A DNA stretch of 64,000 bases, taken from Octopus sinensis (taxonomy: Eukaryota). A program made the position numbers and the translations under genes. How positions within the stretch are numbered: the first letter of the stretch is position 1; every line of letters begins with the position of its first letter. The stretch spans positions 117,118,001-117,182,000 of the forward strand of contig NC_042999.1 of assembly GCF_006345805.1 (NCBI RefSeq). The letters run 5' to 3'. Below the pieces are notes generated by a model. That model did not search any database, was not told the DNA's origin, and saw nothing but the letters and a program-made list of their open reading frames with translations. This document shows, one piece after another, positions 6,311 to 52,433 of the stretch.

Positions 6311-9300
6311 ATATATATATCAGTGGGCTGATAGTTAATTCTCTTGTAATTCCTCATACATCACAATTCATTTGTTTTTATCAAAGACAACAGTAAACCA
6401 AACATTCTGATGACTGAAGGTTTTATAGTTTCATCTTCAATCTACTTTTAATCCACGTTAATCTATAGTGCACGTGCACTGATCATTGCCTGAAGTTGGG
6501 ATTGAACCTCTGTCACATACTAGGTGCCCAGAACTTCCTACTACACCTTGAAATCCAACATGTCCAAGTATTACAGATTTGTAAAAGATTTCAAATAAAG
6601 CATCATAGCAAATTTAGTCTCTGACTAAGGAAAGTTTACACTGTCAACTGCAAATATGCAGTACAACATGTCGGTTCAACATGAAATATCATCTGTATTA
6701 ATTGATTCCATGGTATAAGAATGAGCTAGCATGGTAACTATTACAGTCATTGTAGTTTTTCAATCAATAGACCACATTTTAAATCAAATAGTAAAATCGC
6801 ATGCTCTACATGAACAGGGTAAACTTAACAAAACCAAACTCATAACAAGCTAATAAAGGAGTTTCTATCCAGTCATAAAATTAATTAGGCAAACAAAAAC
6901 TATCTTAATACATTTTTCATTGTAAAAGTGCTCCAATGGGGCCGTAGTTAAAAAAGACACACATAGAAAACAAGAGTGAACTGGTCTGAATTTTAATTCT
7001 ATCTTCACGGTTTGAATCCATATGATAGGGGGCTAAAAATGAGGCAGAGCCTGTTGTGACAGGTGATTTAATGGGTTGGAGGTCCTTTATAATCAGAAAT
7101 TGAGTGGGGAAATGTGTTTATTTTTCACCGAAGTTGAACAAACTAAATAGCAACTCTTGCTTAACGGATACAACCCAACGGTTGTATTAAGAGAAATAAA
7201 GTCTTTTATTATAATATTTGGTTATCAACAATTAAATGATGATCAAGTGTCCCTTTGAGAATATGTCTTTCTTTTTGTGCCCTTCGCAGTACAAAAACAA
7301 TCAAGAATTTACCTAATAAGGAATAATCTCTATTTTAAAATTAATCAACACAACACAAAGTGAAAAATACCTAAAACCTTTGAGGTAAGGAGATAAAATT
7401 ATTTCGACAAAACTTTTAAATTCTAAATTACCTTCAAAGTTTCAAATGACCAATATCTATATAGGAATTCGGTAGATTTTGACATATGTAATTGAAATTA
7501 AAAATCAAAACAACAGAAATAAGTATAACACCAAGTAGCTTATCTAAAACTTGCAAGGGACGGGTTAATTCAGAAACTCTGCGAACTAAGATTAAACTTT
7601 ATGGAGAAGACTATGCCGTCATTTTATTTTAGGTCTACAATAATCTAGGACAGTTCAACATGCCCTTCCATTTATATGACTGTAAGAAGGGGGTGTGTGA
7701 ATTGGCTCGTTTCAATCCACGATAACACCTGGCAACTGGTTTGTATGGGAGAAAAAGTAAAGGAAAATATTAGAACACTGTTGAACTAGTTTTACGTTGT
7801 TTATATTTACCTCCAATTTCTCAATGGTAATCAGCAATACATTCAAGTAAAAAGTTACGAAGTCAAATCACTCATCCATTTCAGTGAAACTATTCGGAAC
7901 GTAGAGTTAGGTTTGGGACAGACCATGCAACGAATAGTAAACATCCGGTCAACCAAAATAGTGTTAAGATAAACGGGAAATCCTTCAAACAAGTGGGTTT
8001 AAAAGAAAAGGGGATGAACACTGCGTGATGTGACGGATATGCTTAGATAGTAAAAGCAAATTTTCTTTTTCAAAAGAAAGAAAAAGAAAATTTGCTAACT
8101 TATTTGTAAAATTGGTTAGTTCCAAAACTTACGAGTAATTTTCGCGAACAGAAAATTCTATTTTAAAATTTTAATATATTTCGTAGAAACTATATAAATC
8201 TACATCAGATTGTATGGAAGTTGTATTAGATCACAAGAACTAAACCCACCCCAATTTAGAAGACCTAACTAGCTTAGTGATGTTACTAGAAATAAAGTGT
8301 CACACACACACAAAAAGAACTGACAATTTTCTCAGTCACTAGTTTTAATTTATTCACAAATCAATGCAGTTATATTTGTTGGTTAAAACTTGATTGTTTT
8401 GCAAGCTACGTTGCTATGTAAGTAATATAACGATATCCCAACCAAGACTGAAATAATGTCAACAGACAATACAATACTCTCACACCACTTATAACCGATT
8501 TCAAATTTGTTTAACATTTCAAAACATCGCAATAACCTTAATTAGTTAGAGAAAACAGGATATTTCAACATTTAGATTCATACAGTAATTCTATAGAATT
8601 TGCTATTTCTAAATTCACACTATACTTGGAATACGTAATAAACAACATTCATTTTGACGAGTAGGCTTTGAATTAGCTGGAATATATCAAGGCCTACGAC
8701 ATACACAGCTGTGTGATGGCTTCAGGGAGGTTTCACCCAATTAATTTAAAACCATGTACCCCTCCCTCCAATACGTGGAAATATATAACTAAAACATTCG
8801 AAAGGTTACATCAGAATATCTGATGACTCAAAAAATAAAAAAATAATAATAATACGAAAACAAATTTGAACAAAATTGAAAATAAAAATTACTCTACAAA
8901 AATCAAAACAAGATGCCCCAATGTTTATATAAGTTAGTTTACATACAAACATAGTTTACATACATATATACCATATTATCATACAGATTAAAGGGTGTAG
9001 ATCAACGGTAGGTTATTGTTATGATACACCATTCAAGTTGGGACTGAGGAAAATAACAGAACAAAATGAAAATAGACCGCGGACTACTAGCACCAACAGT
9101 GTTGTATTAGTAAGGAGGAGTACAGAAGTTTAGAAACCCTGACTGATACTGAAAGGGGTGGGAGAATATATAAAACGGTTGCTGTGTATCTTAAAGTGAT
9201 AATAGTAAGTCTAATTCCACAACTTCGGGTGGGTGGTCAATAAGAAGAAAAAAAATCTTACCTGTCCAAGCATCCCAGCCCACCACCTCCCGTAAACAGT

Positions 9301-11659: not shown

Positions 11660-12096
11660 CAACTGTTCGAGCGTGATCGTTGCCGGGACTGCTGACTGGC
11701 TCCTGTGCTGGTGGCACGTAAAATGCACCATTTGAGCATGATCATTGGCAGCGTCACCTGACTGGCTCCTGTGTTGGTGGCACGTAAAAAAAGACCCATT
11801 TGAGTGTGGTCATTGCCAGTGCTGCCGGACTGGCTCCCATGCAGGTGGCATGTAAAAAGCACCATTTGAGCATGGTCGATGCCAGTACCACCTGATTGGC
11901 CCTCATACTGATGGCGTGTAAAAGCACCCACTACACTCTTGGAGTGGTTGGCGTTAGGAAGGGCATCCAGCTGTAGAAACTTTGCCAGATCAGATTGGAA
12001 CTTGGTGCAGCCTTCTGGCTTGCCAGCCCTCAGTCAAACCATCCAACCCATGCCAGCATGGAAAGCAGATGTTAAACAATAATGATGATGATGATC
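11660..12096 (+). mobile_element. RTE LINE 3' UTR fragment with ~4-5 tandem modules and (gat)n tail
   Basis: Same sequence as the 3' UTR of the RTE at 34292-34880 (GGTGGCACGTAAAAAGCACC modules; gagtggttggcgttaggaagggcatccagc; ttaaac.atgatgatg). Confidence 0.85.
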
Positions 12097-13769: not shown

Positions 13770-14011
13770 GTAAAAGCACCATCCGTTTGTGGCCGTTTGC
13801 CAGCTCTGTCTGGCCCCTGTGCAGGTGGCACGTAAAAAGCACCCACTCCACTCACGGAGTGGTTGCCGTTAGGAAGGGCATCCAGCCGTAGAAACTCTGC
13901 CAGATCAGACTGGAGCCTGGAGCGGCCCCTGGCTTCCCAGACCCCAGTCGAACCGTCCAACCCGTGCTAGCGCGGAAAACGGACGTTAAACGATGATGAT
14001 GATGATGATGA
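13770..14011 (+). mobile_element. RTE-type 3' tail
   Basis: Near-identical to the tails at 42553-42852 and 51760-52041; ends ggacgttaaacgatgatgat. Confidence 0.85.
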
Positions 14012-29899: not shown

Positions 29900-31060
29900 C
29901 TAGCTTTTGTATGCGGAAGATACACAGGTACAATAAATGCTGAAAATGTGCAGAAAATAGACTTCCTCAACTGTCAGGGGGGCAAGCTAGAGGTAGTAGA
30001 TAGCTTCTGTTATCTAGGTGACTAAGTTAGTAGTGGAGTGGGGTGCTTCGAGGGCATAACTGTGAGAATAAGATAGATTAAGCAAAGTCCAGTGACCTCC
30101 TATATCTACTGGCAACAAAGAGCCTCTCTCTTACAGTGAAAGGCAGATTGTATGATGCCCTGTGTGTGAACAGGTATGCTACATGGGCTATGATAGCTGA
30201 GGACATGCGTAGGCTTGAAAGAAATGAAGCCAGTATGCTTCACTGGATGTGCAATGTCAATGTGCATGTTCGATAGAGTGTAAGCATCTTGAGAGAAAAG
30301 TTAGGCATAAGAGGCATCAGATGTGGTGTGCAAGAGAGACAACTGCACTGGTATGGTCATGTGATGCATATGGACGAGGACAATTGTGTAAAGAAGTGCC
30401 AATCTCTAAGGACGAACAGGTGAAGCAGGATCTTTGAACTTTTGAGCTTCACAGAGGCAATGACTAGTGACTGGGACCTTTGGCGATATGCTGTAGTTGA
30501 GATGACCTGTCAAGTCGAGTGAAATCGTAGTCATGGCAGATGTTGGTGTCATATAACTGGCACCCACGCCAGTGGTATGTAAAGAGCACCATTGGAGCAT
30601 TGGACCGCACGGACACAAAGTGGCTTTGTTCCTTTCAAGCACTGGGTCTCATGGAAGCAAAAGTGGCCGAGTTCCTTTTGAACATTGGGCCTCATGGAGG
30701 CAAAGTAGCTGAGTTCCTTTTGAGTGTTGGGCCTCACAGAGGCAAAGTGGCCGAGTTCCTTTTAAGTGTTGGGCTTCACAGAGGCAATGACTGAGACCTT
30801 TGGCATTACGTTGCACTTGAGAAGATCCATCACTGAGCAAAACTGCAGTCATGGCAGATACTGGTGTCATGCAAATGGCACTCATGCTGGTCGCACATAA
30901 AAGCACCATTACACTCATCCAGCCATAGAAAACCATGTCAAATCAGACTGGAGTTCGGTGCAGCCTTCCAGCTTACCAGCCCTGGTCAAACCGTTTAACC
31001 CATGCCAGGAATGACAATGAACATTAAAAGATGATGGTGATTATGATGATGATGATGATG
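29900..31060 (+). mobile_element. Degenerate RTE LINE 3' fragment containing a 42-bp tandem repeat
   Basis: Aligns by eye with 33650-34880 (KLEVVDSF.YLGD, GRLYDA, RNEASML.WMC, LHWYGHV) and ends in (gat)n. Confidence 0.85.
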
Positions 31061-32465: not shown

Positions 32466-32801
32466 GAAGGTGCATGGCTCAGTGGTTAGAGCGTCGAGCT
32501 TACGATCGTGAGGTTGTGAGTTTGAATCCCGGACCGGGCTGCATGTTGTGTTCTTGAGCAAGACACTTTATTTCACATTGCTCCAGTTCACTCAGCTGTA
32601 GAAATGAGTTGTGACGTCACAGGTGCCTGGCTATATCGGCCTTTGCCTTTTCCCTTAGATAATGCTTGTGGTGTGGAGAGGAGAAGCCGGTATGCATGGG
32701 CAACTGCTAGTCTTCCATAAACAGCCTTGCCTGGACTTGTGCCTGGGAGGATAACTTTGTAGGTGCAATCCCATTATCAGTCATGACCGAAGGGGGTCTC
32801 A
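32466..32801 (+). mobile_element. tRNA-derived SINE, third family
   Basis: Head tggctcagtggttagagcg (A box) and gagtttgaatccc (B box), then ttgtgttcttgagcaagacactt. Its tail catgaccga.ggggg is shared with a minus-strand piece at 40415-40450. A related head is on the minus strand at 54255-54525. Confidence 0.8.
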
Positions 32802-32852
<51 letters not shown>

Positions 32853-32860
32853 TAATTATA

Positions 32861-34291
32861 AATAATTACAGAGGTATCAAGCTGTTGGATCAGGTGATGA
32901 AGGTTACAGAGAGGGTCATAACCCAACTAATTAGAGAGAGAGTTAGTTTAGATGAGATGCAGTTTGGGTTCGTGCCAGGGAAAAGTACCACTGATGCTAT
33001 ATTCCTGGTAAGGCAGCTGCAGGAGAAATACCTAGCCAAAGATAAGCCCCTGTACCTGGCTTTTGTTGACATGGAGAAAGCCTTCGCCAGGGTCCCCCGA
33101 TCCCTCATCTGGTGGTCAATGAGGAAACTAGGGATAGATGAATGGTTAGTGAGAGCTGTGCGAGCCATGTACAGGGACGCTGCTAGTAAGGTGAGGGTTG
33201 GCAACGAGTACAGTGAAGAATTCTGGGTAGAGGTAGGGGTCCACCAAGGCTCAGTCCTCAGCCCCCTCCTATTTATCATAGTCCTCCAGGCAATAACGGA
33301 GGAATTCAAGACAGGATGCCCCTGGGAGCTCCTCTATGCTGATGACCTTGCTCTAATTGCTGAGTCACTATCAGAACTAGAGGAGAAGTTTCAGGTGTGG
33401 AAGCAAGGTTTAGAATCGAAGGGCCTTAGAGTCAATCTAGCTAAAACCAAAGTCGTAATAAGTAGGAAGGTAGACAAATCACAAACGCCTTCAAGTAGAT
33501 GGCCCTGCTCGATCTGTAGAAAAGGTGTAGGTAGAAACTCTATAAGATGCACCAAGTGTAAGCTATGGACACATAAGAGGTGCAGCAATGTCAAAGGAAG
33601 GCTAACTAGGAAGATGGTTTTTGTATGTGGCAGATGCTCGGGAGCATTAACCTCTGAAAATCTGCAGAAAACAACTTCCGTCACTTTCCAGGGGAAAAAA
33701 CTAGAAGTAGTTGATAGCTTCCGTTATCTTGGTGACCAAGTCAGTAGTGGGGGTGGGTGTGCTGAAAGTGTAACGGCTAGAGTAAGAATAGCCTGGGCAA
33801 AGTTTAGGGAGCTCTTACCTCTGCTGGTGACTAAAGGCCTCTTGCTCAGAGTAAAAGGCAGACTGTATGATGCATGTGTACGAACAGCCATGCTACATGG
33901 CAGTGAAACATGGGCCGTGACTGCTGAGGACATGCGTAAGCTCACGAGAAATGAAGCTAGTATGCTCCGATGGATGTGTAATGTCAGTGTGCATGCTCGA
34001 CAGAGCGTTAGTACCCTGAGAGAAATGTTGGACCTAAGGAGCATCAGTTGTGGTGTGCAAGAGAGACGATTGCGCTGGTATGGTCATGTGGCGAGAATGG
34101 ATGAAGATAGGTGTGTGAAAAAGTGCCAATCCCTAGCAGTGGAGGGAAGCCGTGGAAGAGGTAGACCCAGGAAAACTTGGGACGAGGTGGTGAAGCACGA
34201 CCTTCGAACTTTAGGTCTCACTGAGGAAATGACCAGCGACCGAGACCTTTGGAAATATGCTGTGCGTGAAAAGACCAGGCAGGACAAGTGA
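32861..34291 (+). CDS. RTE reverse transcriptase, C-terminal ~476 aa, with an internal PHD-like finger
   Basis: NYRGIKLL, QFGFVPGKSTTDAIF, AFVDMEKAF, GVHQGSVLSPLLF, LLYADDL, FRYLG, HGSETW, RRLRWYGHV and RGRGRPRKTW. The ORF-track start at 32783 is a read-through of SINE and (TA)n sequence. Confidence 0.92.
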   Translation, partial: NNYRGIKLLDQVMKVTERVITQLIRERVSLDEMQFGFVPGKSTTDAIFLVRQLQEKYLAKDKPLYLAFVDMEKAFARVPRSLIWWSMRKLGIDEWLVRAVRAMYRDAASKVRVGNEYSEEFWVEVGVHQGSVLSPLLFIIVLQAITEEFKTGCPWELLYADDLALIAESLSELEEKFQVWKQGLESKGLRVNLAKTKVVISRKVDKSQTPSSRWPCSICRKGVGRNSIRCTKCKLWTHKRCSNVKGRLTRKMVFVCGRCSGALTSENLQKTTSVTFQGKKLEVVDSFRYLGDQVSSGGGCAESVTARVRIAWAKFRELLPLLVTKGLLLRVKGRLYDACVRTAMLHGSETWAVTAEDMRKLTRNEASMLRWMCNVSVHARQSVSTLREMLDLRSISCGVQERRLRWYGHVARMDEDRCVKKCQSLAVEGSRGRGRPRKTWDEVVKHDLRTLGLTEEMTSDRDLWKYAVREKTRQDK

Positions 34292-34880
34292 GTCCAGCCC
34301 ACTTATGCATGCCTTTCCTCCCTTGGACACACAAAGACCTGTTGAGGCAAGCGAAGTCGATATCAAACCTCATCCGACGACAGGCACCTATGCCAACCCC
34401 CCTTTGCTTGCGAAGACCTGTTGGGGCAAGTGAAATCGGAATCGAAATTGAACCAATCCTATGACTGGCACCCGGCAGATGCCAGGACCCCTAGATTGGA
34501 GATACGTAAAAAGCACTATCCGAATCATGGCCGATGCCAGCGCCACCTCGACTGGCTTCCGTGTCGGTGGCACGTAAAAAGCACCATCCGAATCGTGGCC
34601 GAAGCCAGTGCCACCTCGACTGGCTTCCGTGCAGGTGGCACGTAAAATGCACCAATCCGACCATGGCCGATGCCAGCCTCGCCTGGCACCAGTGCAGGTG
34701 GCACGTAAAACGCACCCACTACACTCATGGAGTGGTTGGCGTTAGGAAGGGCATCCAGCTGTAGAAACATTGCCAGATAAGACCGGAGCCTGGTGCAGCC
34801 TTCTGGCTTCCCAGATCCCCGGTCGAACCGTCCAACCCATGCTAGCATGGAGAACGGACGTTAAACGATGATGAAGATGA
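32861..34880 (+). mobile_element. 5'-truncated, apparently young RTE-clade LINE
   Basis: Uninterrupted RT ORF to 34291, then a ~590-nt 3' UTR ending in (gat)n. No endonuclease domain (truncated). Confidence 0.93.
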
Positions 34881-34983
34881 TATATGGAGAGAGAAAGAGA
34901 GAGATAGAGAGAGAGAGAGATACATACATATATATCCATATATGTATACATACACACACATACACATATATATATATATACAA

Positions 34984-42202: not shown

Positions 42203-42244
<42 letters not shown>

Positions 42245-42552
42245 CTCCCCCACCACCATTATGTGTGTCTCTCCCTCCTACCCCTCCTCCTCACATGCTT
42301 TCACTGTGTATTACCCCCCCACCACCACCAAGACAAGCAGCTAGCACCGCAGCTCATCAACCGCCCCACCTATACTACGTTTCTTCCTGTTGAATCTGTC
42401 ACTGCCTCAACCGGCTATCTCCTTCCAGTCCCCTCCCCCACTCGTGATGTCCTACGTTTTATTTCCTACGAACCTGCATCAACCCTAGCTGTCATCGTTC
42501 CTCCTTACCCCAACCCTCCCCACTGGTGCTTCCCTATATTACCTGCACCCCC

Positions 42553-42849
42553 AAAAAGCACCATCCGAACGTGGCCGATGCCAGCGCCGCCCTGGCTGGC
42601 TTCCGTGCCGCTGGCATGTTAAAAGCTCAAACCGATCGTGACCGATGCCAGACCCACCCTGGCACCTGTGCAGGTGGCACGTAAAAAGCACCCACTACAC
42701 TCGCGGAGTGGTTGGCGTTAGGAAGGGCATCCAGCCGTAGAAACTCTGCCAGATCAGACTGGAGCCTGGTGCAGCCTCCTGGCTTCCCAGACCCCGGTTG
42801 AACCGTCCAACCCGTGCTAGCGCGGAAAGCGGACGTTAAACGATGATGA

Positions 42850-43834: not shown

Positions 43835-45082
43835 GTCACATTCCAGGGAGAAAAACTACAAGTAGTTGATAGCTTCCATTACCTAGGTGACCAAGTCAGT
43901 TGTCCTGAAAGTGTTGCTGCTAGAATAAGAATAGCCTAGTTCAGAGAGCTCCTACCTCTGCTGATGACAAAGGGCCTTTTACTCAGAGTAAAAGGTAGAC
44001 TATATGACGCATGTGTACGAACAGCCATGCTACATGGCAGTAAAACATGGGCCGTAACTGCTGAGGACATGTGTAAGCTTGCAAGGAATGAAGCCAGCTT
44101 CACATTACACATTGCACATTACACAGAATGACATAACACATCCAGCTCCATTGGATGTGTAATGTCAGTGTGCATAAATGACAGAGTGTAAGCGCCCTGA
44201 GAGAAAAGTTGGACTTAGTATCAGATGTGGTGTGCAAGAGAGACGACTGCGCTGGTATGGTCATGTGTTGCGAATGGATGAGAACAGCTGTATGAAAAAG
44301 TGTCACATCCTAGCAGTTGAGGGAAACTGTGGAAGAGGTAGACCAGGAAGACCTGGGATGAGGTGGTGAAGCATGACCTTTGAACATTGGGCCTCACCAA
44401 GGCAATGACTAGTGACTGAGACCTTTGGAGATATACTGTGCTTGAGAAGACCCGACGAGCCAAGTGAGACCATAACCCATAGCCTGTGCCAGTGGTGTAT
44501 AACCAGCCCACTTATGAGTACCCTTCATTCATTGGACAATAAACTTTGCTTATGAAGACCTGTTGAGGCAAGTGAAATCAAAATCTCTGACATGGCTGAT
44601 GACAGTACTGCCTGATTGGCACTTGTGCCAGTAAAACGTTAAAAGCACCATCCGAGCATGATCGTTGCCAGGGTGCTGACTGGCTCCCGTGCCGGTGGCA
44701 CGTAAAAAGCACCATTCGAGCGTGATTGTTGCCAGTGTCGCCTTACTGGTACATGTGCCAGTGGCACATGAAAAACAACATTCGAACGTGATCATTGCCA
44801 GTGCTGCCAGACTGGCTCCCATGCAGGTGGCATGTAAAAAGCACCTTTTGAGCATGGTTGTTGCCAGTACCACCTGACTGGCCTTCGTGTCAGTGGTACG
44901 TAAAGGCACCCACTACACTTTTGGAGTGGTTGGCATTAGGAAGGGCATCCAGCTGTAGAAACTTTGCCAGATCAGATTGAAGCCTGGTGCAGACTTCTGG
45001 CTTGCCAGTCCTCAGTCAAACTGTCCGACCCATGCCAGCATGGAAAGCGGACGTTAAACAACGATGATGATGATCATGATGA
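43835..45082 (+). mobile_element. RTE LINE 3' fragment with ~5 tandem 3' UTR modules
   Basis: Highly similar to 33680-34880 but with stops and indels. Confidence 0.9.
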
Positions 45083-47314: not shown

Positions 47315-48045
47315 ATCATCATCATCATCGTTTAACGTCCGTTTTCCATGCTGGCATGGGTTGGACGGTTTGACTGAGGTCTGGATAGCCAGCAGCTGCA
47401 CCAGGCTCCAATCTGATCTGGTAATGTTTCTACAGCTGGATGCCCTTCCTAATACAAACCACTCTGAGAGTGTAGTGGGTGCTTTTTATGTGCCACCAGC
47501 ACAGGAGCCAGTCAGGTGGGCTTGGCATTGATCGTGTTTGGAGAGTGTTTTTTACATGCCACCTGGACAGGAGCCAGTCAGGAGGGACTGGCATTGGCCA
47601 TGTTTGGATGATGCTTTTTACATGCCACCAGCACGGGAGCCAGTCAAGTGGTCTTGGCATCAATCATGTTTGGATAGTGCTTTTTACATGCTACCGGCAT
47701 AGTAGCCAGTCAGCAGGTACTGGTATTGGCATGTTTGGATGGTGCTTTTTATATGCTACCAGAATGGGAGCCAATCGGCAGGCACTGACCACAGCTATGG
47801 TTTTGGTTTTATTTGACTCTACAGGTCTTCTCAAGCATATCATATCACCTGATGCATCAAGGGTACTCTTAAATGCGCCGAACATGCAACACTGGCATCG
47901 GCCATGGCTGCAATCTCACTTTAGTTGCTGAGTTTTCTCAATCACAGCATATTTCCAAAGGTCTCAGTCTCCTGTCATTGCTTCTGTGAGGCCCATTGTT
48001 CGAAGGTCATGCTTTGCTATCTCATCCCATGTCTTTCTGGGTCTA
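47315..48045 (-). mobile_element. RTE LINE 3' fragment, antisense, ~5 modules
   Basis: Starts catcatcatcgtttaacgtccg; the minus strand encodes RPRKTWDEIAKHDLRTMGLTEAMT. Confidence 0.88.
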
Positions 48046-48505: not shown

Positions 48506-49712
48506 GTGTGTCTCCCTCACATACCTGTCTGCACATATCTACCATATCCACCTAACCACTCCAATTTCTCTCACCATCACTTATCCATCTCTAAACATTT
48601 CTCCTCATATACTGATGAAACATTCCCCTCTAACCCATTTATATCCCCACCCCCTGTTATGTTCCATTTATATTCCCCTCCAACTGCATCTCCAATACCA
48701 TCTATTTCTCTCTCTCTCTCTTTCTTTCTCACTCTGGCTGTCTTTCTCTATCTTTTTCTGTAACCCTATCTCCCCTTCCACTCCTTTCTTTTCATACTGG
48801 GTTAACCAAGCATCTCCTCTATAGTAATGCACCCATCTCTATCTCTAGTATTCTCTAACCTCTTCTCATGGTACCACTCCCTCTTCAAGCTGACAGGTTT
48901 TTATTTTGCAACCTTGCTTGTACTGGTGCCATGTAAAAGGCACCCAGCACACTGTAAAGTAATTAGCATTAGGAAGGGTATCCAACCTTAGAATCCAAGC
49001 CAAAGCAGACAATAGAGCCTGGTGCAGCTCTCTAGCTTACCAGCTCCTCTCTAACTGTCCAGCCCATTCCAGCATGGAAGACTGACATTAAATGATGATG
49101 ATGATGGTGGTAGTGGCGAAGGTGGTGATTGTGATGATGAAGATGATGGTCAACATCATCATCACCATCATTACTCTCTGACTGGTATATCTAGTCATTG
49201 GGATGACACTCTAAATACTTTGGCAGTCAGCAAATACCACTGGTTGCTGGTGACTGTCACCTGTAGAAGAGCTGTGATGTTGAGGTTTGTCCATTACTTG
49301 ACGTTGCCAGACAAAGATAATTTTTAAAAATCTCTTCTTCACGCTCTGTGAATTGAGCTTAAGTGAATGGTTTTTGGCCTGGGTGTTGTGTTAGGATACA
49401 CGACCATAGCAGGTGAGCTTTGAACATTTCATTGTATTAAAGTGTTTTGTGTTTGGTTGCACACTTAGTTACTTGTTGCATGACAAAGTTGTTTGCCTTG
49501 TTCTGTGAAAGAGATGTGTTGCAGCCTTCTCAAACACTTGTACTCCAACATCAGCTTTGCCATCACTCTCTCTCTCGTCCTCCCTCTCCCCCCTCTCTCT
49601 CTGTATGTGTGCTTGTTATTCTAATTATTCTATTACCTGTTTATTCTCATTTGAAATATTTGCAGGAAGGTAGGGGAGTTTGTTTATAGATCATTACCTC
49701 CCTTTATACTGA

Positions 49713-50811: not shown

Positions 50812-51110
50812 CATCATCATCATCATCATCATTTAACGTCCGTTTTTTCATGCCAGCATGGGTTGGACGGTTTGACTGAGGTCTGGTGAGCCAGAAGGCT
50901 GCACTAGGCTCCAATCTAATCTGACAAAGTTTCTACAGCTGGATGCCCTTCTTAATGCCAACCACTCCGAGAGTGTAGTGGGTGCATTTATGTGCCACCG
51001 GCACGAGGGTCAGTCAGGCGTACTGGCATCGACCACGCTCAAATGGTGCTTTTTACATGCCACCTGCAAAGGATCCAGTCCAGCAGCACTGGCAACAACC
51101 ACACTCGGAG
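50812..51110 (-). mobile_element. RTE-type 3' tail, antisense
   Basis: (cat)n ttaacgtccg..ggatgcccttc..gggtgc. Further antisense tails at 27068-27117, 39335-39430, 50208-50350 and 59454-59636. Confidence 0.85.
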
Positions 51111-51759
51111 ATCAACCTTTGCCATCTTGAAGTCTGTTTCTTTAGTACACTTCCGCCTTGTCCAAAAATTCCCCTTCCGGTCAACTTATACTTAAAAGGC
51201 CACCCCACACGTGCTCTATCTCATTCACCTAGCAGCTATATCCTGAGTACAGATAAGTTGAAAACTTATTTTCACTTCTCGACCAATCATACTACACTCA
51301 AAACATGTTTTTATCTATCTATCTATTTTATCTACTTACTAATTACTAATACGCTTAAGCATTCCCTAAGTCCTCTCATCATTAAGTATTCCCTAATTCC
51401 TCTCATCATTATGTGCCGATAATTTCTCCATTTCTCCACCGTCCCTTTATTAATTTTGCCCGTCCAAGTCCTCGCTCTCTCGTCTATCAACCTTCGCGTA
51501 TTCGCGGTGCACCCGCCCTGCCCACCCCCACCACTTATACCGGATATCTCTATATTTTTGCTCCATCTATACCGGATGTCGCTTCTCCCACCACCATTAT
51601 AGGTGTCTACTCTTCGAACCCCCCCCTTCAATACGCTATTTCACCATGCATTACCCCTCTCGTGATATCCTACGTTCTACTTGTCTAGAACCTGTCATCG
51701 TTTCTCTGAACACCCCTCCCCACTGGTGCTCCTCTATATTTCTGCCCCCCCCCACATAA

Positions 51760-52041
51760 AGAGCACCATCCGAACGTGGCCGATGCCAGCACCGCCCCGA
51801 CTGGCTTCTGTGCAGGTGGCACATAAAAAGCACCAACCAACCGTGGCCGATGCCAGACCCCTCTGGCACCTGTGCAGGTGGCACGTAAAAAGCACCCACT
51901 ACACTCGCGGAGTGGTTGGCGTTAGGAAGGGCATCCAGCTGTAGAAACACTGCCAGACCAGACTGGAGCCTGGGGCAGCCCCTGGCTTCCCAGACCCCGG
52001 TCGAAACCGTCCAACCCGTGCTAGCGCGGAAAACGGATGTT
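51760..52041 (+). mobile_element. RTE-type 3' tail with tandem modules
   Basis: Matches 42553-42852. Confidence 0.85.
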
Positions 52042-52433
52042 AAACGATGATGATGATGATGATATATCATTAGAGTGATACCTATTGCTTTGTAGGTTTG
52101 TCCAGGATGTAAGAAAATAAGTTTACCATTGCTAATAGTGTTTAAACATGCTTCTTTTTTTTCATTAGTATCTGTAGTACAGTATCTTAACCCTTTTGAA
52201 TTTTACATTTCCATGGAATTACACTGTTACGTGTGTTTTGATAAATTTTGGGGATAAGAATCTGGTGGGATTTAGTCACTATTAATTTTAGGTTTGGTGT
52301 TCTTATGTAAAATATTGATACAAGGTTTTAATTCAATTTAAATATGGTCACTTTAAAGTTTTGAATTTTAGAAACTGCAGCATTCTTATTTGTCCCAGCA
52401 TTGAAAGTAAAGGGTAATATAACAATAATAATA

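What the first reader, a model, noticed from the sequence alone, without database searches (positions are those of the whole stretch)
34500..34720. Variable-number tandem array of compact pseudoknot-like RNA modules in the RTE 3' UTR
Seen: a ~60-70-nt unit repeats 1 to ~5 times per copy (11660-11930, 34500-34720, 42553-42692, 44590-44910, 47480-47770(-), 51760-51897). Each unit has a GCCAG..CTGGC hairpin with a variable loop, then CGTGC-a-GGTG-GCACG-TAAAAAG-CACC (e.g. 34628-34653). This can fold as an H-type pseudoknot: S1 CGUGC/GCACG, 1-nt L1, S2 GGUG/CACC and an A-rich L3, similar in size to luteoviral pseudoknots. Paired variants CATGC/GCATG (11838) and TGTGC/GCACA (51809) keep S1, though CpG decay could mimic this. 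Inference: multimerised RT-binding, nuclease-blocking or translation-enhancing elements, possibly an undescribed structured RNA dispersed through introns.
Basis: partly seen in the sequence, partly recalled or inferred. Interest (0 to 1): 0.75.

Follow-up and report, generated by a model that had tools for sequence, protein, structure and literature searches.

The report
Minisatellite in a LINE's 3′ tail
A unit of about 62-69 bases is repeated one to eight times in the 3′ untranslated region of a very abundant RTE-like jumping gene, and although each unit could on paper fold into a small pseudoknot, comparing about 290 units gave no evidence that it does, so it is most likely an ordinary internal minisatellite.

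Summary
Tandem Repeats Finder reports 66-68-nt arrays at five of the six stated places, and my sequence read-out and HMM census confirm the sixth. Each array sits between an RT ORF or its 3′ UTR remnant and a conserved ~150-nt tail ending in GATGATG repeats. The GCCAG/CTGGC and CGTGC-A-GGTG-GCACG-A-rich-CACC complementarities are there.

The pseudoknot reading is not supported:
- On 150 distinct units, 91.0% of cells pair against 90.8% in shuffles, and the covariation score is 0.129 against 0.129.
- Only 3 of 2100 cells are non-CpG compensatory changes.
- RNAalifold predicts no consensus pair.
- Nested folding favours a rival 9-bp helix.
- A sister tail family repeats only the 25-nt core, with S1 down to about 3 bp.

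The test has little power, because most copies decay neutrally and the stems hardly vary between unit types.

The same 3′ UTR region also carries repeats of about 25, 42 and 159 nt, which points to a duplication-prone region rather than selection for one module.

Best reading: a minisatellite inside a transposable element, made by tandem duplication at the 5′ edge of the conserved 3′ module of an RTE-like LINE. Its conserved blocks are likely inherited from a cis-acting, tail-proximal element. This is a new member of a known kind, of low to moderate interest.

The parts
32711..34291 (+). 5′-truncated ORF remnant of the RTE-like LINE (RT domain and Cys-rich region), ending at the stop codon
   Evidence: Stop-to-stop frame of 526 aa. 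Pfam RVT_1 at E = 1.2e-28 and a weak PHD match. Full-length relatives elsewhere have 1040-1046 aa with APE plus RT.
34292..34477 (+). Proximal 3′ UTR, with an internally duplicated GAAGACCTGTTG..GCAAG..GAAATCG segment
   Evidence: Read directly. The same motif lies upstream of the arrays at 44.5 kb and 47.8 kb (-) and of 27 arrays in the genome sample.
34478..34517 (+). Degenerate first unit. It has the H1 5′ arm and the A-rich/CACT end, but no S1 5′ arm
   Evidence: first row of the window 34475 array. The same degenerate unit is present in an intact-ORF copy of this subfamily, L189.
34518..34585 (+). Unit 1 (68 nt): H1 GCCAG 34536-34540 / CTGGC 34552-34556; CGTGT 34560-64, C, GGTG 34566-69, GCACG 34570-74, TAAAAAG, CACC 34582-85
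34586..34653 (+). Unit 2 (68 nt): H1 GCCAG 34604-08 / CTGGC 34620-24; CGTGC 34628-32, A, GGTG 34634-37, GCACG 34638-42, TAAAATG, CACC 34650-53
   Evidence: The nested MFE of this unit uses the rival helix GUGCCACCU/AGGUGGCAC.
34654..34716 (+). Unit 3 (63 nt, short H1 loop), the tail-proximal unit; S1 5′ arm is AGTGC, so the first pair is lost
   Evidence: The short-loop type is the commonest tail-proximal unit type (cluster of 24 units from 24 arrays).
34717..34868 (+). Conserved 3′ tail module (~151 nt) shared by all arrays. It starts with the hairpin CACTC-NNN-GAGTG
   Evidence: Tail HMM match to model positions 1-151, E = 1.6e-49. There are 181 tail matches in 1.464 Mb.
34866..34882 (+). 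Terminal short tandem repeat (GATGAT-type) at the 3′ end of the insertion
   Evidence: Read directly. The same end is seen in the other copies.
11676..11943 (+). Array of 4 units (TRF 3.6), 5′-truncated inside a unit; tail at 11929-12078
13793..13858 (+).
42574..42707 (+). Two units next to a tail (42693-42843), with a different, C-rich upstream region
44595..44925 (+). Five units of an older family; units 1 and 3 have degraded S1/S2; tail at 44911-45060
47463..47795 (-). Five units on the minus strand; tail at 47477-47328
50966..51099 (-).
51779..51911 (+). Two units next to a tail (51897-52047), with the same C-rich upstream family as at 42.5 kb

Best explanation
The array is a minisatellite inside the 3′ untranslated region of an RTE-like LINE retrotransposon and its truncated or derived copies. 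It was likely produced by repeated tandem duplication of the segment at the 5′ edge of the element's conserved 3′ module.

**Shown.**
- A unit of about 62-69 nt stands head to tail 1-8 times between the ORF-proximal 3′ UTR and a ~151-nt tail that ends in GATG-type repeats.
- The unit nearest the tail is always present.
- Copy number differs between families, between copies of one young family, and through 5′ truncation.
- The same UTR region also carries repeats with periods of about 25, 42 and 159 nt.

**Inferred.**
- Duplication happens by slippage, template switching or unequal exchange, at the DNA or cDNA stage.
- The conserved blocks (GCCAG/CTGGC arms, YGTGC, GGTGGCAYR, TAAAAAG, CACC) are inherited from the tail-proximal copy. 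That copy is probably part of the cis-acting 3′ region bound by the element's own protein during target-primed reverse transcription.
- The extra copies are tolerated and largely dispensable. They are not obligatory pseudoknot modules.
For: **Anatomy.**
- TRF arrays.
- RT ORF ending 186 nt before the first, degenerate unit.
- Full-length relatives with one ORF of 1040-1046 aa carrying APE (residues 35-245) and RVT_1 (564-764).

**Abundance.** 291 units, 113 arrays and 181 tails in 1.464 Mb.

**Unit number next to 135 full tails.** 0: 47, 1: 22, 2: 25, 3: 13, 4: 13, 5: 12, 6: 1, 7: 2. One or two units are therefore common among inserted copies.

**Recent local amplification.**
- Four identical adjacent units in L056.
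- Alternating dimers in L046.
- 2, 3 and 7 units in copies of one young unit type.

**Other periods in the same UTR region.**
- About 25 nt: 15 spacings of 25-26 nt.
- 42 nt, 4.6 copies, at window 30595-30787.
- 159 nt, 2.8 copies, in copies with an intact ORF.

**Degenerate units carried at family level.** AGTA-GGGTG-CCAAGAG and CATGC..GAACA are majority types of 3 units each. The intact-ORF copies carry units that lack the S1 5′ arm.

**Gradient.** Core identity falls mildly away from the tail: 0.94, 0.94, 0.93, 0.88, 0.86 for units 1-5 from the 3′ end (n = 36, 32, 32, 24, 13).

**No covariation for any of the 14 proposed pairs**.

**Print.** Octopus RTE-2_OV is described with a 3′ UTR of about 600 nt made mostly of a 'microsatellite' (PMC9115989, passages read).
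Against: - The arms, the GGTG/CACC pair and the A-rich stretch vary much less between 16 unit types (minor-base fraction 0.01-0.15) than the H1 loop, spacer, L1 and 5′ part (0.29-0.41). This suggests constraint on these blocks in the active lineages, beyond a neutral minisatellite.
- A Watson-Crick-only compact H-type pattern is uncommon in shuffles (1.6%).
- The core block is also kept in a sister tail family.
- The gradient of decay away from the tail is weak and rests on small numbers.
- The duplication mechanism and the cis role of the tail-proximal block are inferred, not shown.
- Covariation tests on mostly dead copies cannot exclude a structure that acts only in master elements.
Confidence: 0.6

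Rival explanations
1. Each unit folds in the RNA into a GC-rich hairpin (H1) plus an H-type pseudoknot: S1 YGUGC/GCAYR, a 1-nt L1, S2 GGUG/CACC, and the A-rich L3 lying in the S1 minor groove. The multimerised modules would act in retrotransposition as RT or ORF-protein binding sites, exonuclease blocks or translation elements.
For: - The crossing pattern is present, and its loop lengths look sterically permissible; that judgement rests on recalled rules and was not modelled here.
- It occurs in only 1.6% of shuffles when only Watson-Crick pairs count.
- 91% of cells across 150 units can pair.
- The arms and the A-rich L3 are the conserved blocks, while L1, the spacer and the H1 loop vary.
- Most family-level variants in S1 (T29, T33, T42, CATGC/GCATG) keep pairing.
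- There is precedent: the R2Tg protein binds a small pseudoknotted element with base triples, followed by an A-rich single strand, in its 3′ UTR (PMC12222951, passages read).
Against: **No covariation.**
- Paired cells are 91.0% against 90.8% in shuffles (79 of 500 shuffles as high). The covariation score is 0.129 against 0.129 (253 of 500).
- Only 9 of 2100 cells change on both sides. Six of these are at a CpG pair.
- Mutual-information ranks run 61-1190 of 1653.
- CpG double-decay classes are TG/CA 55, CA/TG 9, TG/TG 31, CA/CA 9; Fisher p = 0.30.
- RNAalifold gives 0 pairs.

**Energetics.**
- The array's fold energy is ordinary (z = -1.10).
- S2 alone is -3.3 and S1 -6.4 kcal/mol. The unit's nested optimum (-19.6) uses a rival 9-bp helix between the H1 loop and GGUGGCAC.
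- In the window's array the base-pair probability is at most 0.18 for S1 and at most 0.07 for S2.
- Over 150 units the means are H1 0.45, S1 0.33, S2 0.16.

**Comparisons.**
- The sister family's majority reads AGTGC-T-GGTG-CCATA. That leaves S1 with about 3 pairs, while S2 gains a pair.
- Intact-ORF copies carry units without the S1 5′ arm.
- With G-U allowed, 19.6% of shuffles show such a pattern.
Confidence: 0.1
2. The units are functional but simple. Each would present one or two plain hairpins (H1; GGUG(C)..(G)CACC with an A-rich loop, or S1) or a single-stranded A-rich site. The array would then be a multivalent landing pad for the element's protein or a host RNA-binding protein, with no pseudoknot.
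For: - H1 has invariant arms with loops of 6 or 10-11 nt that differ in sequence between unit types. It is the best-supported helix in nested folding (mean base-pair probability 0.45; -9.9 kcal/mol).
- The GGTG..A-rich..CACC part is what both tail families and the 25-nt units keep.
Against: - H1 shows no covariation. Its five pairs sit at the independence expectation, and its single changes break pairs as often as they give G-U.
- The 25-nt units lack H1 altogether.
- One or two units are common among inserted copies.
- There are no binding data.
Confidence: 0.2
3. The complementarities are incidental and no RNA structure matters. The blocks look conserved only because arrays are homogenised by frequent duplication, or because of a DNA-level property such as a duplication-prone sequence.
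For: - Four repeat periods occur in the same region.
- Identical adjacent units show recent duplication.
- No covariation and no consensus fold.
Against: - The loops, spacer and 5′ part differ at many positions between unit types while the arms do not. Recent homogenisation alone does not explain this contrast.
- The Watson-Crick-only pseudoknot pattern is rare in shuffles.
Confidence: 0.1

Closest known systems
Internal tandem repeats (minisatellites, VNTRs) in the untranslated parts of retrotransposons, such as the Gmr9/GmOgre 3′ region minisatellites and the Ogre 'hypervariable 3′ UTR'
   Same: [quoted passage not shown] Copy number varies, and the repeats are carried along by retrotransposition. 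Sources: PMC3305785 and PMC7004042, search listing with abstract start only; PMC6947457, passages and Table 1 read, including its citation of Macas et al. 2009.
   Different: Those examples are plant LTR retrotransposons. Here the host element is an animal non-LTR (RTE-like) element, and the unit keeps several short self-complementary blocks.
RTE-2_OV, the RTE-clade LINE transcribed in the Octopus vulgaris brain (Petrosino et al. 2022, PMC9115989; passages read)
   Same: A single ORF with endonuclease and RT, and a 3′ UTR of about 600 nt (about 585 nt here, 34292 to about 34875) said to consist mostly of a repeat that blocked PCR.
   Different: - The paper gives 1109 aa; the intact copies here have 1040-1046 aa.
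[quoted passage not shown] Here the first unit starts 186 nt after the stop and the unit is about 66 nt.
- No sequence was available to compare. PMC13282606 (passages read) states that the sequences were not reported. Identity with RTE-2_OV is therefore untested.
Pseudoknotted 3′ UTR element of R2 retrotransposons bound by the R2 protein to start target-primed reverse transcription (PMC12222951; abstract and passages read)
   Same: [quoted passage not shown] This is the best functional analogy for the boldest reading.
   Different: The R2 element is single-copy, lies within the last 67 nt of the RNA, and is shown by structure and assays. Here the block lies about 150 nt upstream of the 3′ end, is multimerised, belongs to a different clade, and has no structural or covariation support.
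Luteoviral (BWYV-type) frameshifting H-type pseudoknots (recalled, not looked up here)
   Same: Similar size and layout on paper: a 5-bp S1, a short L1, a 3-4-bp S2 and an A-rich loop of about 7 nt.
   Different: Those sit a few bases downstream of a slippery site inside overlapping ORFs. Here the units lie in the 3′ UTR, at least 186 nt past the stop codon, and are tandemly repeated. The resemblance is one of shape only.
Shared 3′ tails of LINE/SINE partners recognised by the LINE RT (UnaL2-type stem-loop plus terminal repeats; Kajikawa and Okada 2002, as cited in PMC4758252, passages read)
   Same: The conserved tail with terminal short tandem repeats is found behind at least three different upstream contexts: the RTE 3′ UTR, a C-rich family, and a sister tail family.
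   Different: The tandem units lie upstream of that tail and vary in number. Whether the RT needs them is unknown.

Membership tests
H-type RNA pseudoknot (luteoviral/BWYV-like) | Two stems in crossing order, with loop lengths that can span the grooves | tested here: met
   S1 5 bp, L1 1 nt, S2 4 bp, L2 0, L3 7 nt at 34628-34653. This is a sequence pattern only.
H-type RNA pseudoknot (luteoviral/BWYV-like) | Both stems supported by compensatory changes across relatives | tested here: not met
   - 91.0% paired against 90.8% in shuffles; covariation score 0.129 against 0.129; 3 non-CpG double changes in 2100 cells.
- mutual-information ranks 61-1190 of 1653.
- no consensus pairs.

Power is low, because the copies decay neutrally.
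H-type RNA pseudoknot (luteoviral/BWYV-like) | The fold is at least competitive with nested alternatives | tested here: inconclusive
   - S1 is -6.4 and S2 -3.3 kcal/mol. The stacks sum to -15.9 before any pseudoknot penalty.
- The rival nested fold of the unit is -19.6, against -16.3 for H1 plus S1.
- No pseudoknot-capable energy model was available.
H-type RNA pseudoknot (luteoviral/BWYV-like) | Position just downstream of a slippery site within overlapping reading frames (frameshift signal) | tested here: not met
   The units begin 186 nt after the ORF stop and lie in the 3′ UTR. Unit lengths of 62-69 nt are not multiples of three. No slippery site was searched for.
H-type RNA pseudoknot (luteoviral/BWYV-like) | Stems protected in chemical probing or seen in a solved structure | not testable with these tools
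   No probing data. Sequencing runs were available only as contigs.
TE-internal minisatellite (VNTR) of a retrotransposon 3′ UTR | Head-to-tail copies of a unit of tens of bases | tested here: met
   TRF period 66-68, 2.2-4.7 copies, at five places in the window. Block spacings peak at 61-68 nt.
TE-internal minisatellite (VNTR) of a retrotransposon 3′ UTR | Lies inside the element, between the ORF stop and the 3′ end, and is carried to new insertions | tested here: met
   At least 40 copies are 97-98% identical over the array plus tail.
TE-internal minisatellite (VNTR) of a retrotransposon 3′ UTR | Copy number varies between copies and families | tested here: met
   - 1-8 units per array.
- 1-7 units among 27 arrays that keep the upstream UTR motif.
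- 2, 3 and 7 units within one young unit type.
RTE-clade non-LTR retrotransposon | Single ORF with an N-terminal APE-type endonuclease and an RT; no separate ORF1 | tested here: met
   L186 ORF of 1040 aa: Exo_endo_phos at 35-245 (E = 7e-09) and RVT_1 at 564-764 (E = 1e-31). An upstream ORF1 was not specifically searched for.
RTE-clade non-LTR retrotransposon | 3′ end made of short tandem repeats rather than poly(A) | tested here: met
   GATGATGATG-type ends in the window copies and in L189.
RTE-clade non-LTR retrotransposon | RT groups with the RTE clade in a phylogeny | not tested
   No reference RT set was at hand. The clade name rests on architecture and on the analogy with RTE-2_OV (PMC9115989).
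LINE 3′ recognition element bound by its own RT (R2 or UnaL2 type) | Lies at the extreme 3′ end of the template RNA | tested here: not met
   The nearest unit ends about 150 nt before the terminal repeats; the tail at 34717-34868 lies between them.
LINE 3′ recognition element bound by its own RT (R2 or UnaL2 type) | Shared between the LINE and its non-autonomous partners | tested here: inconclusive
   The block plus tail occurs behind three upstream contexts. The non-RTE contexts were not shown to be SINEs.
LINE 3′ recognition element bound by its own RT (R2 or UnaL2 type) | Needed for protein binding or TPRT | not testable with these tools
   This needs a bench assay.

The most novel reading that the evidence does not exclude
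The 26-nt block next to the tail (YGUGC-N-GGUG-GCAYR-UAAAAAG-CACC) is a protein-recognition pseudoknot of an RTE-clade LINE. Its A-rich strand docks in the S1 minor groove, as in the R2 3′ UTR element. Tandem multiplication of this block tunes the retrotransposition efficiency of a LINE/SINE system with roughly 300,000 tails in this genome, by my extrapolation. It would be the first structured cis element defined for RTE elements, and a rare case of a multimerised pseudoknot.
Probability: 0.08. Interest if true: 0.6.

Novelty: new member of a known kind. Interest (0 to 1): 0.25.

Why it matters
The element family is huge. About 118 tails and 189 units per Mb were found outside the window. By my extrapolation from 1.4 Mb that is roughly 320,000 tails and 510,000 units genome-wide. 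Copies with open frames of 1000 aa or more are common: 20 of the 90 scored matches.

Knowing that its 3′ UTR carries a duplication-prone minisatellite helps repeat annotation and subfamily definition. It also explains why this UTR resists PCR and assembly.

The conserved tail-proximal block is a reasonable place to start looking for the cis signal that RTE-type reverse transcriptases recognise, which I believe has not been defined for this clade (recalled; no dedicated search). As it stands the finding is ordinary: the pseudoknot has no support beyond a sequence pattern.

Tried and rejected
**Searches that found nothing useful**
- Rfam, whole window at gathering scores: no match.
- Rfam, 34300-34900 at E up to 10: three matches far below their gathering scores, taken as chance.
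- RNAalifold on 150 units: no consensus pairs.
- Scan of metagenome contigs with the 20-nt IUPAC core: three hits. By their flanks they look like unrelated sequence, which I judged prokaryote-like coding by eye, with no tail. Taken as chance.
- Earlier findings of this scan: none for this genome or sequence.
- Paper searches found no description of this 66-nt unit or of a pseudoknot in RTE elements. Terms used: octopus/RTE/retrotransposon/tandem repeat; cephalopod/SINE/tandem repeats/LINE-derived/RTE; non-LTR retrotransposon/pseudoknot/reverse transcriptase/UTR; LINE/UTR/tandem repeats/minisatellite/retrotransposon/SINE. The library lacks most subscription journals, and the older octopus SINE papers were not readable.

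**Sequencing runs**
- No RNA holder is listed.
- Contigs of four runs were laid. They cannot show RNA ends, strand or level, and no use was made of their depth.

**Ideas tested and dropped**
- The unit as a duplicate of part of the tail: local alignments of three units to their own tails were matched by 84, 552 and 354 of 2000 shuffles. Not significant.
- An alternative nested helix GUGC(30-33)/GCAC(50-53): T33 with A50 occurs in 7 units of 3 arrays of one family, Fisher p = 0.056. Not informative.

**Methods replaced**
- The first HMM register left ragged ends over the CACC arm. It was replaced by a permuted model.
- A fuzzy-regex census that allowed indels mis-registered the blocks. It was discarded and replaced by a fixed-register parser. 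That parser's C39 class still holds many false hits, so for the sister family only the 25 blocks followed by their tail were used.
- Six young copies fetched to find a full-length element had no long ORF where read: four were read and one had no frame of 150 aa or more before the script stopped. A protein search then found intact ones.
Full report
**1. The observation**

Tandem Repeats Finder lists arrays with a period of 66-68 nt at 11692-11928 (3.6 copies), 34504-34716 (3.2), 44636-44904 (4.1), 47479-47787 (4.7) and 51753-51896 (2.2). The two units at 42553-42692 are visible in the sequence.

34628-34653 reads CGTGC-A-GGTG-GCACG-TAAAATG-CACC, with TAAAAAG in the preceding unit. CATGC/GCATG is at 11838 and TGTGC/GCACA at 51809.

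A unit HMM also finds one unit at 13793-13858, two units at 50966-51099 (-), and single related blocks at 30536, 30854 and 48890.

**2. Context**

Upstream of the 34.5-kb array is a 526-aa open frame (32711-34291) with a Pfam RVT_1 match at E = 1.2e-28. It is 5′-truncated.

Searching the window's own genome (2.72 Gb) with this protein gave 90 scored matches. Twenty have open frames of 1000 aa or more, and ten have exactly 1043 aa.

Four such copies have a methionine-to-stop ORF of 1038-1046 aa. In L186 this carries an APE-type endonuclease (residues 35-245), RVT_1 (564-764) and a weak PHD-like match.

One ORF with APE plus RT, and a 3′ end of GATG-type short repeats, is the RTE architecture. 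I did not place the RT in a tree. I infer, but did not test, that this is an octopus genome. The inference rests on its size, about 30 large contigs, and the resemblance to RTE-2_OV.

Every array is followed by a conserved tail of about 151 nt. There are 181 tail matches in 1.464 Mb, and 160 of them start within the first 20 model positions. The array plus tail of the window's family has at least 40 copies at 97-98% identity.

**3. Census**

I sampled the window plus 140 random 10-kb stretches, 1.464 Mb in all. The HMM finds 291 units in 113 arrays. Array sizes are 1: 35, 2: 33, 3: 15, 4: 13, 5: 13, 6: 1, 7: 2, 8: 1.

Outside the window this is about 189 units and 118 tails per Mb.

Next to 135 full tails there are 0 units 47 times, 1 unit 22 times, 2 units 25, 3 units 13, 4 units 13, 5 units 12, 6 units once and 7 units twice. 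Many of the zero-unit cases belong to a sister family or are degraded.

Many arrays start inside a unit against unrelated flanks, which is the usual 5′ truncation of LINE insertions. Among the 27 arrays that keep the upstream RTE 3′ UTR motif the number still runs from 1 to 7. A few further arrays were cut at the edge of my 160-nt look-back and wrongly scored as lacking the motif.

Copies of one young unit type have 2, 3 and 7 units. L056 has four identical adjacent units.

**4. Test of the proposed pairs**

- **Independence test.** On the first 231 units, every one of the 14 pairs (H1 5, S1 5, S2 4) pairs at the rate expected if the two columns were independent. H1 6-25 is 89.8% against 89.7%. 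S2 37-52 is 92.3% against 92.5%. The largest excess is S1 29-43, 85.7% against 82.3%.
- **CpG sites.** That pair and S1 30-42 are the two CpG sites. Among units where both have decayed, the classes are TG/CA 55, CA/TG 9, TG/TG 31 and CA/CA 9, with Fisher p = 0.30. Three of the four double-decay outcomes keep pairing anyway.
- **Mutual information.** On 291 units, with average-product correction, the 14 pairs rank between 61 and 1190 of 1653 column pairs.
- **Official count.** I used the 150 best-scoring of 174 distinct units, drawn from 184 with complete ends. Standard pairs make up 91.0% of cells, against 90.8 ± 0.2% in shuffles, and 79 of 500 shuffles are as high. The covariation score is 0.129 against 0.129, with 253 of 500 as high. 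Both sides changed in 9 of 2100 cells: 6 at the CpG pair and 1 each at three others.
- **Single changes.** These break pairs about as often as they give G-U. H1 2-25, for example, has 7 G-U and 7 unpaired cells.
- **RNAalifold.** It returns no pair on the same alignment.

There is a caveat. Most copies are dead on arrival and decay neutrally, so they cannot show selection on the RNA. The informative differences are those between unit types in the active lineages, and there the stems hardly vary. The test therefore fails to support the fold but cannot exclude it.

**5. What varies and what does not**

I took majority sequences of 16 unit types, from clusters of at least 3 among 200 complete units. 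They differ little in these blocks (minor-base fraction):

| Block | Minor-base fraction |
|---|---|
| H1 arms | 0.05 and 0.01 |
| GGTG | 0.03 |
| A-rich stretch | 0.06 |
| S1 arms | 0.11 and 0.15 |
| CACC | 0.11 |

They differ a lot elsewhere:

| Block | Minor-base fraction |
|---|---|
| H1 loop (length also switches between 6 and 10-11 nt) | 0.41 |
| Spacer | 0.29 |
| L1 | 0.38 |
| 5′ part | 0.40 |

This contrast is the best argument that the blocks are constrained in active elements.

Against a requirement in every unit, several family-level unit types have broken stems:
- AGTA-GGGTG-CCAAGAG
- CATGC..GAACA
- TGAAAAA-CAAC
- GCCAA/ATGGC, a double change that does not restore the pair

The intact-ORF copies also carry units without the S1 5′ arm.

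Core identity falls slightly with distance from the tail: 0.94, 0.94, 0.93, 0.88, 0.86.

**6. Energetics**

- The array folds no better than its shuffles (-73.3 kcal/mol, z = -1.10).
- For the unit at 34603-34655: S1 alone is -6.4, S2 alone -3.3 and H1 -9.9 kcal/mol.
- The nested optimum is -19.6. It pairs the H1 loop (GUGCCACCU) with AGGUGGCAC, which are the same bases S1 and S2 need.
- In the three-unit array the pairing probability is 0-0.18 for S1, at most 0.07 for S2 and 0.34-0.75 for H1.
- Over 150 units the means are H1 0.45, S1 0.33 and S2 0.16.
- The stacks of S1 and S2 sum to -15.9. With a pseudoknot penalty of 7-10 kcal/mol (recalled, not computed) the knot would be about as stable as S1 alone.
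- No pseudoknot-capable model was available.
- The pattern itself is uncommon by chance only when G-U is excluded: 1.6% of shuffles against 19.6%.

**7. Relatives inside the genome**

- **Sister family.** A sister tail family begins CAGTACACTCTG and otherwise resembles the first tail family. It is preceded by 2-3 units of about 25 nt that consist of the core block alone (15 spacings of 25-26 nt; 17 such places).
- **Which helix persists.** The majority of its 25 tail-proximal blocks reads AGTGC-T-GGTG-CCATA-TAAAAAG-CACC. S2 can grow to GGUGC/GCACC, while S1 is left with about three pairs. What persists across the families is GGUG..A-rich..CACC, not the knot.
- **Conservation of the block.** The block is no better conserved than the rest of the tail.
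- **Other periods.** The same UTR region carries a 42-nt array at window 30595-30787, flanked by two copies of the core block. It also carries a 159-nt repeat, 2.8 copies at 96% matches, in the intact-ORF copies L186-L188.

Four different periods in one region point to a duplication-prone stretch rather than selection for one module.

**8. Reading**

The best-supported account is a TE-internal minisatellite. Shown: its place, its repeat structure, its variable number, the several periods, and the lack of covariation. Inferred: how it duplicates (slippage, template switching or unequal exchange), and why the blocks are conserved (they copy a tail-proximal element that likely acts in cis with the element's protein).

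I put this at 0.6, plain-hairpin multivalent sites at 0.2, the pseudoknot at 0.1, and no RNA structure at all at 0.1.

**9. Known relatives and novelty**

- Tandem repeats in the untranslated parts of retrotransposons are well known (PMC6947457, passages; PMC3305785 and PMC7004042, listing only).
- For octopus RTE-2_OV a repeat-filled 3′ UTR of about 600 nt is in print, called a microsatellite (PMC9115989, passages). A later annotation paper says its sequence was not released (PMC13282606, passages), so identity could not be checked. Supplements were not read.
- The nearest functional analogy for the bold reading is the pseudoknotted R2 3′ UTR element (PMC12222951, passages).
- My four paper searches found no description of this 66-nt unit.

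I rate it a new member of a known kind, with interest 0.25.

Noticed in passing
window 30440-31060 (+): A related element whose 3′ UTR holds a 42-nt tandem array (30595-30787, 4.6 copies). It is flanked by two copies of a larger duplicated segment, each ending in the core block (30536-30605 and 30854-30922), and followed by a diverged tail with GATGATG repeats.
   Followed up: partly
L121:1090-1164 (+), L164 (-) oriented 6432-6503, L089, L069, L038; window 48890-49095: A sister element family with a tail starting CAGTACACTCTG and 2-3 tandem units of about 25 nt that are the core block alone (GGTGCCAYRTAAAAAGCACC type). Several copies share an upstream segment of unknown origin; it could be a SINE body.
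   Followed up: partly
L186:4360-4813 (also L187, L188): Copies with an intact 1040-1046-aa ORF carry a 159-nt higher-order repeat (2.8 copies, 96% matches) in the 3′ UTR. It includes degenerate units and sits ahead of two canonical units and the tail.
   Followed up: partly
genome-wide: Of 90 scored matches to the window's RT, 20 have open frames of 1000 aa or more and 10 have exactly 1043 aa. Many have identical scores, so this LINE family looks recently or currently active.
   Followed up: partly
window 42230-42560 and 51400-51760 (+); also L080 near 5600: A C-rich upstream region (..CCCCTCCCCACTGGTGCT..) joined to 1-2 units plus the tail. This may be a non-autonomous partner that shares the LINE's 3′ module. 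No tRNA-like head was looked for.
   Followed up: no
window 34722-34734 and the same place in 8 other tails in the window: The tail begins with a hairpin CACTC-NNN-GAGTG. Its three loop bases differ between copies (ATG, GCG, TTG, ACG, TCG, TCA) while the arms stay the same.
   Followed up: no
window 34608-34616 with 34633-34641: The H1 loop (GTGCCACCT) is the exact complement of AGGTGGCAC, giving a 9-bp rival helix that dominates the nested fold of this family's units. An intact copy of the subfamily (L189) has GCCGCC there, which would pair with one G-U.
   Followed up: partly
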